The notes under the pieces: generated by a model
Database searches by the model: none
What the model saw: only the letters and a program-made list of their open reading frames with translations
What the model was told of the DNA's origin: nothing
Source: a virus
Lineage: Duplodnaviria > Caudoviricetes
IMG/VR virus record: IMGVR_UViG_3300021255_002065
Coordinates: 64,001 to 128,000 of that record
Reading direction: 5' to 3' (one strand)
Length of the DNA: 64,000 nucleotides
In this document: positions 9,613 through 63,727 of the stretch, piece after piece
Layout of the letters: every line of letters starts with the position of its first letter
How positions within the stretch are numbered: position 1 is the stretch's first letter
Made by a program: the position numbers and the translations under genes

Positions 9613-9632
9613 GAGGGCCCATATGGGCCCTC
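9613..9632. terminator. Perfect palindrome terminator
   Basis: GAGGGCCCATATGGGCCCTC followed by a T-rich tract. Confidence 0.7.
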
Positions 9633-9649
9633 TTCTATTTTTTTAATTT

Positions 9650-9783
9650 TGTATCTATATATAATTAATATGATATAGAAATATATCTATAATATTTCAT
9701 CCTTATGATCAACTCATAAGAACCTAAGTTGAATGCATATACACATAGGTCGATCATGTAGGATTCCAAAAGGAGGTAATCTT
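9650..9783 (+). promoter_or_regulatory. AT-rich putative early promoter plus structured 5' leader (copy A)
   Basis: TATAATTAATATGATATAGAAATATATC and the leader motifs TGATCA, TTGAATGCATATA, GTCGATCAT, GGATTCC-AAAAGGAGG recur at 50484-50615 (minus). Confidence 0.7.
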
Positions 9784-10311
9784 ATGAGAAGAATGTTTAG
9801 AGAATGCAGAGAGACCAGAGACGTTGAACGTCGCTGGAGCGAAAGACTGGAAGCAGCATCCAAATTTACTCAGTCTGAAGAGTTCAAATTATCAGAGGGA
9901 ATGTCCCCTGAGGAAAGAGCCAAATATGAAAGAATGGCGAGAGAACACCTGGGTATCCCGCAGGATGCTGAAGTAGACTGGTATGTGGCTGGCAAAATAG
10001 CAAAAGAAATTCTCGAAATCAAGCGAGATCAAAAACTTGGCAAAGGGAACATCCTCTTTGGAATCGGGAAGAAAAGCGATGAGGAAATCAAGGAAATCCT
10101 CGAAGCGAGGAAGCCTGAAATGCCTAAATTAAGAGAGGTTGAAAAGTCCCTCTCTAACGAAGGCGTACTTAAGGCTGAAACCCAACCGCAGCAGTCTCAG
10201 CAGTCTTATTCGGACAAATACCAGGCTGCAATGCAGGCAGCCCAGCAATTGGCATCTTCTGGTTACTATACACTGGAAGATGCCGTTCGCATTGTAATGG
10301 CAAATCTCTAA
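9784..10311 (+). CDS. Hypothetical accessory protein; C-terminal ~58 aa shared with the next ORF
   Basis: AGGAGG RBS; ends ...KYQAAMQAAQQLASSGYYTLEDAVRIVMANL. Confidence 0.75.
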   Translation: MRRMFRECRETRDVERRWSERLEAASKFTQSEEFKLSEGMSPEERAKYERMAREHLGIPQDAEVDWYVAGKIAKEILEIKRDQKLGKGNILFGIGKKSDEEIKEILEARKPEMPKLREVEKSLSNEGVLKAETQPQQSQQSYSDKYQAAMQAAQQLASSGYYTLEDAVRIVMANL

Positions 10312-10318
10312 AACAAGC

Positions 10319-10388
10319 GACCTGAGTAAGTCATTAAACTGCTCAATCATATACAAATAAGTCCAGCTCATGACTTGAGAAACCGAGC
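10319..10388 (+). ncRNA. Tandem H-type pseudoknot intergenic element (copy 1)
   Basis: GAC-CT-GAGT-AA-GTC..AAAC-T-GCTC then AAGTC-CA-GCTC-AT-GACTT..AAAC-C-GAGC; three near-identical copies in the window. Confidence 0.7.
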
Positions 10389-10410
10389 GTAATTAAAGGA
10401 GGAAATCATT

Positions 10411-10758
10411 ATGTTTGAATTCGGTAATTTTGAAGAAATCCGCGAAATAGACGAAATAGATGAACTCGATTCCAATACTTCTAATGGATACAAGTATACG
10501 AGTGCTGAAGTATGGAAGATGGGAAGAGCTGCTATTGAAAAGCTTTTTGAAGCCAACAAAGATATCTTATTCCCAGAGGTTGAAAAAGACCTCTCTAACG
10601 AAGGGGTATTGAGAGCTGAAACCAAGGCACAGGCTCAGGCACAGCAGCAATCTTACGATGAAAAGTATAGAGCTGCAATGCAGGCAGCTCAGGAGTTGGC
10701 AGCCTCTGGCTATTATACACTGGAACAGGCAATCCAGATTGTAATGGCGAATCTCTAA
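10411..10758 (+). CDS. Hypothetical accessory protein, C-terminal paralog of 9784-10311
   Basis: AGGAGG RBS; ends ...KYRAAMQAAQELAASGYYTLEQAIQIVMANL. Confidence 0.75.
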   Translation: MFEFGNFEEIREIDEIDELDSNTSNGYKYTSAEVWKMGRAAIEKLFEANKDILFPEVEKDLSNEGVLRAETKAQAQAQQQSYDEKYRAAMQAAQELAASGYYTLEQAIQIVMANL

Positions 10759-10765
10759 CAGTAAG

Positions 10766-10835
10766 CGACCTGAGTAAGTCGTTAAAACTGCTCAATCATA
10801 AACATAAGTCCAGCTCATGACTTGAGAAACCGAGC
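10766..10835 (+). ncRNA. Tandem H-type pseudoknot intergenic element (copy 2)
   Basis: Near-identical to 10319-10388; first stem extended to CGAC/GTCG. Confidence 0.7.
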
Positions 10836-10857
10836 ATACCCTAAGGAGGTAATTATT

Positions 10858-11190
10858 ATGAAAAATATTGTTCAATTTTTGCAGGCAGTCGAAATCGCTG
10901 ATATTATCAGCAAAGAGCTTCAGAATGACTCCAGATATCTTGCTGATTATATCCTGGAAGCTGCAAAAGAATCCGGGTATTATATCTGGTCTCAGTCAAT
11001 GGAGGTTGCTGAATCCGCAGTAAAATTATCAATTCCGGTACTGAAATACGTACCTGAACAAGAGTGTGATGCTTCAGTTATCTATAAAATCCAGGCTGCA
11101 TTTGTGATCAACAATATCAAACAGTTGGACGAGATGAAGACTGCAGAAAGAAAGGCTCATCAAGAGCCAACTTTCATGTATTTCATCTAA
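10858..11190 (+). CDS. Hypothetical accessory protein
   Basis: AAGGAGGT RBS before ATG 10858 (MKNIVQF...). Confidence 0.7.
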   Translation: MKNIVQFLQAVEIADIISKELQNDSRYLADYILEAAKESGYYIWSQSMEVAESAVKLSIPVLKYVPEQECDASVIYKIQAAFVINNIKQLDEMKTAERKAHQEPTFMYFI

Positions 11191-11197
11191 CAGAACA

Positions 11198-11268
11198 TCC
11201 CTGCTGAAAAGCAGGGAGGTGAGTATATGAATTATCGTATATTGACCTCTCTGCTTTTTTCTTTTCTT
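11198..11268 (+). terminator. Long-stem terminator/attenuator with an alternative upstream hairpin (copy A)
   Basis: AAAAGCAGGGAGGT...ACCTCTCTGCTTTT plus T tract; homologous copy at 49703-49772 (minus). Confidence 0.7.
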
Positions 11269-49615: not shown

Positions 49616-49702
49616 AATGCGATCACCGCCTTTCCATTCGTAATGAAAGGTTTTAGCTTTTCGTTGTTGAGAAATATAAAGAACCTTTTTGATATAAAAA
49701 AT

Positions 49703-49772
49703 AAAAGAAAAAAGCAGGAGAGTCAATATACGATAATTCATATACTCACTCTCCTGCTTTTCTGCAGGATGA
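49703..49772 (-). terminator. Long-stem terminator/attenuator (copy B)
   Basis: TCCTGCAGAAAAGCAGGAGAGTGAGTATATGAATTATCGTATATTGACTCTCCTGCTTTTTTCTTTT on minus; homologous to 11198-11268. Confidence 0.7.
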
Positions 49773-50483: not shown

Positions 50484-50615
50484 AGTAATTCCTCCTTTTC
50501 GGAATCCCCAATGATCGACTCGGGTATATATGCATTCAACCTGAGTATACCATGACATGATCATGGAGATATAATATTATTATTGATATATTTCTATATC
50601 ATATTAATTATATTT
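50484..50615 (-). promoter_or_regulatory. Putative early promoter plus structured leader (copy B)
   Basis: Homologous to 9650-9783 with compensatory stem changes. Confidence 0.7.
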
Positions 50616-50647
50616 ATATGAAAAAATAAAATAATAGAGACAGATGA

Positions 50648-62531: not shown

Positions 62532-63194
62532 TTAAATTCCAAGCTGCTTTTCTTTCGACACTGGAGATGGCGGTGTCGCAACCTTGTAACCTTTCTTTGT
62601 CACAAGGTCCTCGTATACAGTGAGTTCGCCGTCAAGATATTCGAGGGCCTCTTCGAGATTGATTGCGGGCTTAACGCCATTCTCAAACAGAAGCTCACGA
62701 GTCTTGATGTTGACCTCTTTGAGACTGAACATCTCATCGAGGTCTTCTTCACGAGGGAGACCGGTCCACTGTTCGCGGGGCAGACGGATGGCAATTGGCG
62801 CAAATTCGATATCGCCGATATTGCCGGTATACACCCAGCCTGCAATCAGTGTGAATGTTTCGGCTCTAACATCGTAATCATCCACTGCAATTACGATTTC
62901 GCGCTTACAGCCCATGTGGGTATCAAGAAGGGGGAAATGAATTCCTACCTTGTTGATGAAGTACTCATAATGGGTATCTGTAATTCCAGACTCCGGAAGT
63001 TCCTCACACAGAATTGAATTGGCTGTAAGAAGATTGACGATTTCAGCCATGATATTCTCAAGGTTGATTTCTCTGATTTCAGCCTCGGCCTGCAAATACT
63101 GCTGCCATGCAGTCTTCAAGCGGAAGTCTGTCTCTGCCTTTGTAATCTTCATTGCTTCTGTCAATGTTTTGTCAAATGTTTTCGATGCTTTCAT
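62532..63194 (-). CDS. Hypothetical accessory protein
   Basis: AAGGAGG RBS before MKASKTF; higher GC; preceded by the tandem pseudoknot element. Confidence 0.7.
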   Translation of the reverse strand: MKASKTFDKTLTEAMKITKAETDFRLKTAWQQYLQAEAEIREINLENIMAEIVNLLTANSILCEELPESGITDTHYEYFINKVGIHFPLLDTHMGCKREIVIAVDDYDVRAETFTLIAGWVYTGNIGDIEFAPIAIRLPREQWTGLPREEDLDEMFSLKEVNIKTRELLFENGVKPAINLEEALEYLDGELTVYEDLVTKKGYKVATPPSPVSKEKQLGI

Positions 63195-63218: not shown

Positions 63219-63286
63219 GCTCGGTTTCTCAAGACATGAGCTGGTCTTATGTTTATGATTGAGCAGTTTAACGACTTACTCAGGTC
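63219..63286 (-). ncRNA. Tandem H-type pseudoknot element (copy 3)
   Basis: GACCTGAGTAAGTCGTTAAACTGCTC...AAGACCAGCTCATGTCTTGAGAAACCGAGC; the second stem shows a compensatory change relative to copies 1 and 2. Confidence 0.7.
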
Positions 63287-63314
63287 AGATCCAACAGTAA
63301 GAATAAGTATCTTT

Positions 63315-63493: not shown

Positions 63494-63517
63494 GAGTGGG
63501 CCCATATGGGCCCACTC
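63494..63517. terminator. Perfect palindrome hairpin
   Basis: GAGTGGGCCCATATGGGCCCACTC. Confidence 0.55.
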
Positions 63518-63727
63518 TTATTCGGATAAAAATAATAAACCTTTTAACGACATGCTCGGGTCGGATGAAAAAGCGTCCGGCAGACGCTTGGTAAATTAAG
63601 AACATAAATTTGAATACGATCTTAATTCATATAAATGATATATATACCAAAAAATGAAAAAATGCAAATTTTGTATGCTACACCGGAAAACCGGGGATTA
63701 ACTTATATTTCGAAAGGAGTCTATAGC

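What the first reader, a model, noticed from the sequence alone, without database searches (positions are those of the whole stretch)
10319..10835. Repeated tandem H-type pseudoknot element with compensatory changes
Seen: a ~70-nt element occurs at 10319-10388, 10766-10835 and 63219-63286 (minus), always just upstream of an RBS. Each copy is two units of one architecture, S1-C-N-S2-AW-S1'-N(2-5)-AAAC-N-S2'. Unit 1 pairs GAC/GTC and GAGT/GCTC; unit 2 pairs AAGTC/GACTT and GCTC/GAGC, so both stems differ between units yet stay paired. In copy 3 the unit-2 stem changes to AAGAC/GTCTT, a compensatory swap. A single unit (CGAC-CC-GAGC-AT-GTCG-TT-AAAA-G-GTTT) lies at 63537-63563 (minus). Inference: a compact functional RNA fold. 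Candidate roles are a 5'-to-3' exonuclease (RNase J) roadblock protecting the downstream cistron, a processing signal, or a decoy analogous to the pseudoknot antitoxin RNAs of type III toxin-antitoxin systems.
Basis: partly seen in the sequence, partly recalled or inferred. Interest (0 to 1): 0.85.

Follow-up and report, generated by a model that had tools for sequence, protein, structure and literature searches.

The report
Tandem coremin-like RNA pseudoknots in phage
The repeated 70-base spacer is real: it is two tiny knotted RNA folds of a family carried by hundreds of unrelated phages and some RNA viruses, absent from Rfam, which looks like the plant-virus 'coremin' element that blocks RNA-degrading enzymes, so it probably shields and insulates neighbouring genes on one message, though this is untested.

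Summary
Observation confirmed. Three about 70-nt copies and one single unit lie where stated. None is expected by chance.

Each copy holds two H-type pseudoknot units. Both units belong to a very widespread, uncatalogued phage RNA family. Rfam gave no hit, even at E<=10.
- Unit 1 is the common class A form: S1, CU, GAGY, AW, S1', AAAC-U, GCUC.
- Unit 2 is class B, with S2 flipped to GCUC/GAGC.

Both stems covary strongly in tests that did not select for them.

Class A sits mostly 3-14 nt after a stop codon. It often precedes head-scaffold or protease genes, or a tRNA. Class B sits 3-10 nt before a Shine-Dalgarno. The tandem element does both jobs in one intergenic gap.

The closest known relative is the coremin motif (xrRNA-C, and its Watson-Crick variant) of RNA viruses. 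Class B also occurs in the 3' UTR of a picorna-like virus contig. Strict coremin membership fails, because there is no hp2 and the loop rule differs.

The most likely role is a mechanical roadblock or insulator at cistron borders. This is inferred, not shown. A ToxI-type decoy is not supported.

Earlier agents of this scan found the same family on other DNA. I re-tested its core claims here.

The parts
10318..10344 (+). Copy 1, unit 1 (class A pseudoknot). S1 is 10319-21 with 10330-32. S2 is 10324-27 with 10341-44. It starts 6 nt after the TAA stop at 10309-11.
10345..10357 (+). Copy 1, A/U-rich linker between the two units. It is semi-conserved in all tandem copies and is a possible single-stranded processing site (inferred).
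10358..10388 (+). Copy 1, unit 2 (class B pseudoknot). S1 is 10359-63 with 10372-76. S2 is 10366-69 with 10385-88. It ends 7 nt before the SD at 10396-10402. The ATG is at 10411.
10765..10793 (+). Copy 2, unit 1 (class A). It starts 6 nt after the TAA stop at 10756-58.
10805..10835 (+). Copy 2, unit 2 (class B). It ends 7 nt before the SD at 10843-49. The ATG is at 10858.
63261..63287 (-). Copy 3, unit 1 (class A). It lies 27 nt after the stop of the 50-aa ORF.
63219..63249 (-). Copy 3, unit 2 (class B), carrying the compensatory A-U/U-A swap in S1. It ends 9 nt before the SD at 63209-03. The ATG is at 63194.
63537..63563 (-). Single unit of the AAAA-G subtype of class A, with a weak S2 (two G-U pairs). 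It lies in the leader of the 50-aa ORF, just after a hairpin plus U-run.
   Evidence: the orthologue in L177 is identical, and L299 has a variant followed by unit 2

Best explanation
Each about 70-nt element is a tandem pair of small triple-helix-type H-type pseudoknots from one widespread phage RNA family. The element is transcribed as part of the polycistronic mRNA.

Unit 1 (class A) is the gene-end form. It sits as close behind the stop codon as a terminating ribosome allows. Unit 2 (class B) is the leader form. It sits just outside the ribosome footprint, 5' of the Shine-Dalgarno.

I propose that both act as protein-independent mechanical roadblocks, like coremin xrRNAs. They would stop enzymes that track along RNA: 5'-3' exonuclease RNase J, 5'-end-dependent scanning by RNase E or Y, and possibly 3' exonucleases on the gene-end unit. 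Each accessory cistron would then be a separately stabilised and insulated unit. The A/U-rich linker between the knots is a candidate cleavage point.

Shown: the fold, family membership, positional rules and gene context. Inferred: nuclease blocking, its direction and the processing site.
For: Fold:
- S1 pairs 2-3 were left free in a pattern scan, yet are paired in 112-113 of 113 class A units with 4-5 pair types. The slid control gives 26-38.
- With S2 left free, 281 of 297 units have 4/4 S2 pairs.
- Of bystander copies not picked by any retrieval pattern, 55 of 85 have 4/4 S2 pairs. The reversed control gives 0 of 34.
- The formal covariation score is 0.561 against 0.193 shuffled (0 of 500 shuffles reach it) and 0.05-0.12 slid. 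All four S2 pairs show double changes.
- The loops are near-invariant when not forced: CU, A-W, and AAACU or AAAAG.

RNA-level element: 150 units have both flanks coding on the motif strand, against 10 on the opposite strand.

Position:
- The stop-to-motif gap peaks at 3-14 nt (92 of 209), and units almost never lie inside ORFs.
- Class B lies 12 nt or less from an SD in 16 of 19 cases. Class A does so in 12 of 85.
- In close relatives, unit 2 alone follows a promoter-like block.

Context:
- Downstream ORFs include 16 scaffold and 7 head-protease hits out of 146. Upstream ORFs include none out of 150.
- The same portal or minor-head, motif, scaffold, capsid order occurs in Staphylococcus, Lactobacillus and Bacillus phages.

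Analogy:
- Coremin shares the 3-5 bp hairpin with a C-G closing pair, the loop starting with C and ending A-D, and the UUAAACU spacer. A CGAGUAA loop is Xrn1-resistant.
- Coremin also stalls ribosomes and was selected in a frameshift screen in E. coli.
- Tandem coremin copies occur naturally.
- A flavivirus xrRNA blocks bacterial RNase J1.
- Class B occurs in the 3' UTR of a picorna-like RdRp contig.
Against: No experiment supports the proposed function. The hp2 hairpin that coremin needs to resist Xrn1 is not enriched after the phage motif (22 of 254 units, against 34-49 at control positions). The family occurs in hosts that, to my knowledge, lack RNase J.

The direction of blocking is ambiguous:
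- A tRNA starts 4-16 nt downstream of 27 units, and within 100 nt of 30. Only one unit follows a tRNA.
- U-runs are enriched right after the motif (59 of 254, against 5-13 at control positions).
Both points suit a 3'-end cap of the upstream gene better than a shield for the downstream one.

The stems are short, and the nested fold energy is unremarkable. In the tandem copies, GCUC of unit 1 could instead pair with GAGC of unit 2 (copy 2).
Confidence: 0.45

Rival explanations
1. The element is an operator for an RNA-binding protein. A phage or host protein, for example ribosomal protein S1 or a translational repressor, would recognise the conserved loops and set translation of the adjacent gene.
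For: About 17 of 27 positions are nearly fixed in sequence, not only in pairing. This is more than a plain obstacle needs. Class B lies 3-10 nt from the SD, where the T4 gene 32 operator pseudoknot also lies (my own knowledge).
Against: The motif is shared by phages of many phyla and by eukaryotic RNA viruses. No single phage protein can be the partner, and a host partner would have to be universal. The flanking genes are unrelated. The conserved positions match those needed for protein-free Xrn1 resistance in coremin.
Confidence: 0.13
2. The element acts at the transcription or 3'-end level. The knot, often with a following U-run, would work as an unusual intrinsic terminator or pause, or would simply be the stable 3' end of the upstream message.
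For: A U-run lies within 10 nt after 23% of units, against 2-5% at control positions. The motif is anchored to the stop codon. It lies before tRNAs but not after them. It lies upstream of promoters in marine phage loci.
Against: None of the window's units is followed by a U-run. Class B sits in leaders directly before the SD. Termination ahead of scaffold and capsid genes would cut the expression of the most needed proteins.
Confidence: 0.15
3. The element is a ribosome-directed signal. A knot placed 6-9 nt after the stop codon would sit at the mRNA entry channel of the terminating ribosome. There it would modulate termination, read-through, frameshifting or re-initiation, or block post-termination scanning.
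For: The modal 6-9 nt spacing (6 nt in copies 1 and 2) equals the spacer of recoding pseudoknots. Coremin stimulates -1 frameshifting and stalls scanning ribosomes.
Against: In the window, read-through of the stop adds only 5 codons, and no slippery heptamer precedes the stop (read directly). Copy 3 is 27 nt from its stop. Many units follow double stops or precede tRNAs. Class B is positioned relative to the SD, not to the stop.
Confidence: 0.1
4. The element is a decoy of a type III toxin-antitoxin RNA (pseudo-ToxI), a small riboswitch or a self-cleaving ribozyme.
For: The fold is a compact pseudoknot with an A-rich strand, as in ToxI and preQ1-I. Several family units in other loci lie beside hammerhead-like sequences.
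Against: The two units are not identical tandem repeats. No ToxN-family hit was found in the contig, although the tool's control genomes also gave none. There was no Rfam match to preQ1, other riboswitches or ribozymes, even at E<=10. The SD is not sequestered. The motif is usually a single copy at gene borders in front of unrelated genes.
Confidence: 0.05

Closest known systems
Coremin motif, xrRNA-C (BNYVV RNA3, cucumoviruses and many RNA viruses; Dilweg 2019 PMC6546385, Dilweg 2023 PMC10520033)
   Same: Both have a 3-5 bp hairpin with a C-G loop-closing pair. In both, the loop starts with a pyrimidine (C) and ends A-(A/U). In both, a short spacer holds the essential UUAAACU string right after the hairpin. 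Long loops (7-8 nt, for example CGAGUAA) are tolerated in coremin. Both occur in tandem, and in intergenic regions and 3' UTRs. The class B sequence itself is found in the 3' UTR of a picorna-like contig.
   Different: The second loop base is U or A, not the required G. The loop pairs by 4 Watson-Crick or G-U pairs with the bases after AAAC-N. The hp2 hairpin that coremin needs is not a feature of the phage family. Unit 2 has C where coremin needs U19. The phage elements sit in DNA phages, and their hosts have no Xrn1.
Watson-Crick coremin variant, xrRNA-WCC (Sanxia picorna-like virus 5 and selected hits; Dilweg 2023 PMC10321173)
   Same: An antiparallel S2 forms between the hairpin loop and the spacer, with GAG/CUC as in unit 1. 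A-rich L2 adenosines are predicted to dock in the S1 minor groove. It works as a frameshift stimulator without hp2.
   Different: In WCC, S2 is 3 bp, lies directly after AAA (nt 18-20) and uses a 4-nt loop with an essential G as L1. The phage motif has an 8-nt loop, C-N as L1, an extra A-W after S2, and S2' placed after AAAC-N.
Luteovirus-type -1 frameshift pseudoknots (BWYV) and the preQ1-I riboswitch fold
   Same: Same size class, and the same S1, short L1 starting with C, S2, A-rich L3 layout that forms a minor-groove triplex.
   Different: There is no slippery site or overlapping frame here. There is no Rfam preQ1 match and no SD sequestration. BWYV and other frameshift knots do not resist Xrn1.
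5' stabilisers and processing stalks of bacterial and phage mRNAs (ompA and aprE leaders, cryIIIA STAB-SD, T7 RNase III sites; from my own knowledge)
   Same: They are structures at cistron borders or next to the SD that set the stability of segments of polycistronic messages.
   Different: Those are plain hairpins or SD-like sites, each specific to one host and lineage. This is one sequence-conserved pseudoknot shared across phyla.

Membership tests
Coremin motif (xrRNA-C) | hp1 stem of 3-5 bp with a C-G loop-closing pair | tested here: met
   All 7 window units have it. The C-G closing pair is present in 112 of 113 units where it was not forced and in 55 of 63 in a relaxed scan.
Coremin motif (xrRNA-C) | Loop consensus YGAD / YGNNAD, with G required at loop position 2 | tested here: not met
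   The loops are C-U-GAGY-A-W (class A) and C-A-GCUC-A-U (class B). The first position (C) and the last two (A-W) fit, but position 2 is U or A.
Coremin motif (xrRNA-C) | Conserved spacer GUUAAACUAC, with A16-A20 essential | tested here: inconclusive
   AAAC is present in six of the seven window units; the single unit has AAAA-G. Unit 1 has UUAAACU followed by G. Unit 2 has AAACC, and in coremin the U19C change abolishes resistance.
Coremin motif (xrRNA-C) | Second hairpin hp2 directly 3' of the spacer, required for Xrn1 resistance | tested here: not met
   A hairpin starting 0-3 nt after S2' occurs in 22 of 254 family units, against 34-49 at control positions. In the window, the next hairpin is 13-14 nt away.
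Coremin motif (xrRNA-C) | Stalls Xrn1 in vitro without protein | not testable with these tools
   This needs an enzyme assay.
xrRNA-WCC | Antiparallel Watson-Crick S2 between the hp1 loop and the spacer, kept through compensatory change | tested here: met
   S2 is 98.8% paired, and all 4 pairs show double changes, in a set not selected for S2. The register differs from nt 6-8 / 18-20.
xrRNA-WCC | Single essential G as L1 in a 4-nt loop | tested here: not met
   L1 is C-U or C-A, and the loop is 8 nt.
Type III TA antitoxin RNA (ToxI / CptI / TenpI) or phage pseudo-ToxI | Array of near-identical 34-45 nt direct repeats next to a ToxN-family toxin gene | tested here: not met
   The two units differ in both stems. 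PF13958 gave no match in the 148-kb contig, though the control genomes also gave none and the contig is about 55% complete.
Any Rfam 15 family (including preQ1-I, SAM-II/V, fluoride, pistol, hammerhead) | Covariance-model match | tested here: not met
   There were no hits at gathering score over the window. No hit touched the element at E<=10 over 10250-10900.
-1 PRF / read-through stimulator pseudoknot | Slippery heptamer or leaky stop 5-9 nt upstream, with a productive extended frame | tested here: not met
   The spacing fits (6 nt), but no slippery heptamer precedes the stop, and read-through stops after 5 codons (sequence).

The most novel reading that the evidence does not exclude
One tiny RNA fold may be a universal, protein-free brake on RNA-tracking enzymes. 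It would be shared by DNA phages of most bacterial phyla and by eukaryotic RNA viruses (a coremin superfamily). In phages it would have specialised into a gene-end form and a leader form, which this giant phage combines into a portable insulator for accessory-gene cassettes. That would make it the first xrRNA-type element of prokaryotic viruses, acting on enzymes unrelated to Xrn1.
Probability: 0.35. Interest if true: 0.85.

Novelty: new variant of a known kind. Interest (0 to 1): 0.75.

Why it matters
If the knots block bacterial nucleases or translocases, they would explain how phages tune the stability of single cistrons inside long messages, for example raising scaffold and capsid output. 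They would extend the xrRNA principle from eukaryotic RNA viruses to DNA phages. They would also give synthetic biology a 27-nt, host-independent mRNA stabiliser or insulator.

The family is abundant. Yet it is absent from Rfam, and in the cultured-phage records inspected it is unannotated or labelled a predicted promoter. No paper in the searched library links coremin to bacteriophages.

Tried and rejected
- Rfam at gathering score and at E<=10 gave nothing on the element.
- blastn of the 1.8-kb region against the phage collection gave no match.
- Nested MFE folding gave no significant z-scores and cannot model the knot.
- Theta/HDV-like ribozyme: considered because several units precede tRNAs, and rejected because the helix order does not fit a double-nested HDV fold (reasoning only, no tool run).
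- boxA (NusB/E site): considered because of the UGCUC tail. The bases after it are not conserved.
- Promoter reading, as in the BPROM label in phage B166: rejected because of stem covariation, sense-strand bias and presence in RNA-virus contigs.
- Sequence-string literature search gave only unrelated primer hits.
- Pfam and PHROG on the six flanking ORFs of the window gave no family.
- The class 3 plant xrRNA paper (PMC12397905) does not concern coremin or bacteria.
- The host of this phage was not determined.

Full report
**What is in the window.**
The two halves of the element match 2 and 3 places in the window. None is expected in 100 dinucleotide shuffles.

A descriptor of the proposed architecture, run over the whole 148-kb phage contig (the window is bases 64001-128000), returns the seven named units and two weak extra hits.

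Copies 1 and 2 lie in a 447-nt tandem duplication of two genes that share a C-terminal module. They are therefore not independent. Copy 3 is 96% identical over 55 nt and lies between unrelated genes on the other strand.

All three copies share one layout.
- Unit 1 starts 6, 6 and 27 nt after a stop codon.
- A 13-14 nt A/U-rich linker follows.
- Unit 2 then ends 7, 7 and 9 nt before a strong Shine-Dalgarno.

The flanking ORFs match no Pfam or PHROG family.

**It is not a private repeat.**
A scan of viral contigs fixed only the loop and S2 letters of unit 1 and left the S1 flanks free. The same design for unit 2 gave 58 loci. Its records were named as Saccharibacteria, Firmicutes, Pseudomonas, Pseudoalteromonas, Brucella, Calothrix, Bacteroidota and others.

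Among cultured phages, 137 records hold a match to unit 1. They include 92 Staphylococcus phages, Lactobacillus, Bacillus megaterium and Anoxybacillus phages, cyanophages and crAss-like phages. Almost all of the matches listed lie in unannotated intergenic DNA.

There are two sequence classes.
- Class A: S1, CU, GAGY, A-W, S1', 0-4 nt, AAAC-U (or AAAA-G), GCUC.
- Class B: S1, CA, GCUC, AU, S1', AAAC-C, GAGC.

Unit 1 is class A. Unit 2 is class B. The single unit is the AAAA-G subtype.

**The pseudoknot is supported by covariation that was not selected for.**
- S1: at the free flank positions, pairs 2 and 3 are paired in 113 and 112 of 113 class A units, with 4-5 pair types. One-column slid controls give 26-38. 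The closing C-G pair is present in 112 of 113.
- S2, definition left free: under a definition that leaves S2 free, 281 of 297 unique units have all four S2 pairs.
- S2, bystander copies: of copies in the same loci that no retrieval pattern selected, 55 of 85 have 4/4 pairs. The reversed-sequence control gives 0 of 34. The pair sets seen include AGGY/GCCU, GGGY/GCCC, AAGC/GCUU, GGAC/GUCC, GAAC/GUUC, GUUC/GAAC and ACUC/GAGU.
- Formal count: on 145 units, including the seven from the window, 90.4% of cells are paired. The covariation score is 0.561, against 0.193 for shuffles (0 of 500 reach it) and 0.05-0.12 for slid partners. S2 is 98.8% paired, and all four of its pairs show double changes.
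- Loops: when only S1 pairing and GAGC...GCUC are required, the loops are still CU (54 of 63), A-A/U/C (55), and AAACU or AAAAG (55).

Energy-based nested folding shows nothing. It also offers a competing GCUC/GAGC pairing between the two units. The family data argue against that pairing, because both classes occur singly in most phages.

**Where the family sits.**
- The motif lies on the sense strand: 150 units have both flanks coding on the motif strand, against 10 on the opposite strand.
- The distance from the preceding stop codon has a sharp onset. In 92 of 209 cases it is 3-14 nt, with a mode of 6-9 nt. Only 4 units lie inside an ORF. The distance to the next start is broad.
- Class B behaves differently. 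In 16 of 19 SD-led cases it ends 3-12 nt before the SD, against 12 of 85 for class A.
- In close relatives, unit 2 alone follows a promoter-like block.
- Downstream ORFs are enriched for head scaffold (16) and head protease (7) out of 146. Upstream ORFs include none of the former, but do include portal and minor-head proteins.
- Annotated Staphylococcus, Lactobacillus and Bacillus phages show the same order: portal or minor head, motif, scaffold, capsid.
- A tRNA gene starts within 100 nt after 30 units, and 4-16 nt after 27 of them. Only one unit follows a tRNA within 100 nt. 22 of the 30 come from one tRNA-Asp lineage.
- U-runs are enriched within 10 nt after the motif (59 of 254, against 5-13 at control positions). 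A following hairpin is not enriched.

**What it resembles.**
Earlier agents of this scan pointed to the plant-virus coremin motif. I read the three source papers.

Coremin is a 3-5 bp hairpin with a C-G closing pair. Its loop is YGAD or YGNNAD. A spacer GUUAAACUAC follows, whose AAACUA core cannot be changed. A second hairpin is needed for Xrn1 resistance. Loops of 7-8 nt work, including CGAGUAA.

A Watson-Crick variant pairs GAG in the loop with CUC in the spacer.

Coremin also stalls scanning ribosomes and promotes -1 frameshifting. It was selected in an E. coli frameshift screen, so such folds form in bacteria.

Unit 1 shares the hairpin, the C...A-W loop frame and UUAAACU. It fails on the G at loop position 2 and on hp2. 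Unit 2 further has C in place of U19. I therefore file the phage element as a variant that probably works like coremin, not as a member of that family.

A direct link exists. The class B sequence lies near the 3' end of an 8.5-kb contig, just after a picorna-like RdRp ORF (E = 3.5e-44). It also lies near the end of a 9.2-kb contig whose upstream ORF gives a weak, below-cut-off match to a dicistrovirus-type capsid family.

No paper in the library joins coremin with bacteriophage. Rfam has no model that hits the element.

**Mechanism.**
The best reading is a protein-free mechanical obstacle at cistron borders.

For the leader form (unit 2), several points fit a shield against 5'-end-dependent decay. 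It abuts the SD. It sometimes follows a promoter directly. A flavivirus xrRNA is known to stop bacterial RNase J1.

For the gene-end form (unit 1), three findings fit a cap on the upstream cistron at least as well: the stop-codon anchoring, the tRNA asymmetry and the U-run enrichment. The direction therefore stays open.

The tandem element may do both, with the A/U-rich linker as a cut site. All of this is inference. RNase J cannot be the only target, because carriers include phages of hosts that, to my knowledge, lack it.

The rivals are a protein operator, a terminator or pause element, a signal acting on the terminating ribosome, and a decoy, riboswitch or ribozyme. I weigh each in its own section.

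**Verdict.**
The fold is real, and it belongs to a large uncatalogued family. The function is probable but untested.

The same family was met before by this scan on other DNA. What this window adds is the class A plus class B tandem, and the split between stop-anchored and SD-anchored forms.

Noticed in passing
window 9634-9694 (+) and 50578-50638 (-); 9728-9780 (+) and 50488-50540 (-): A shared AT-rich promoter-like block is followed by a shared leader in front of two different genes. The leader's long hairpin differs between the copies by changes on both strands that keep it paired.
   Followed up: partly
window 11200-11268 (+) and 49700-49768 (-): A 69-nt element, 87% alike, closes two different accessory islands. 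It is a GC hairpin, then a second long inverted repeat, then a U-run, so it is probably a compound terminator.
   Followed up: no
window 10134-10311 and 10575-10758 (+): This is a tandem 441-447 nt duplication. Two adjacent ORFs have unrelated N-termini and a 77-79% identical C-terminal module ending in the same last residues. Neither matches a Pfam or PHROG family.
   Followed up: partly
window 9617-9632 (+), 63495-63518 (-): Perfect GGGCCC-ATAT-GGGCCC-type palindromic hairpins recur at island borders. One lies in a 5' leader with no U-run after it.
   Followed up: no
L006, L096, L120 (viral contigs), just 3' of class A units: Hammerhead-like strings (CUGAUGA ... GAAAC around a short hairpin) lie within about 40 nt downstream of the pseudoknot. 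This suggests a link with self-cleaving RNAs in some phages.
   Followed up: no
L308:1505-1533 (Bacillus phage poppyseed, Page-like): This variant has the spacer UUAAAUCUAC, almost the coremin spacer, followed by UC. It may be an intermediate between the coremin form and the phage form.
   Followed up: no
L130:8359-8460 and L129, L160, L175, L178: Short contigs that look like RNA viruses carry two or three class B-like units in tandem near their 3' end. This includes forms with S2 GUUC/GAAC and with U as the first loop base.
   Followed up: partly
L009-L114, marine phage loci: Up to 8 units occur per roughly 10 kb, at many of the gene ends seen. They are often followed by DnaA-box-like TTATCCACA strings or by sigma-70-like promoters. 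PHROG 1221 (unknown function) is the commonest upstream gene (24 of 150).
   Followed up: no
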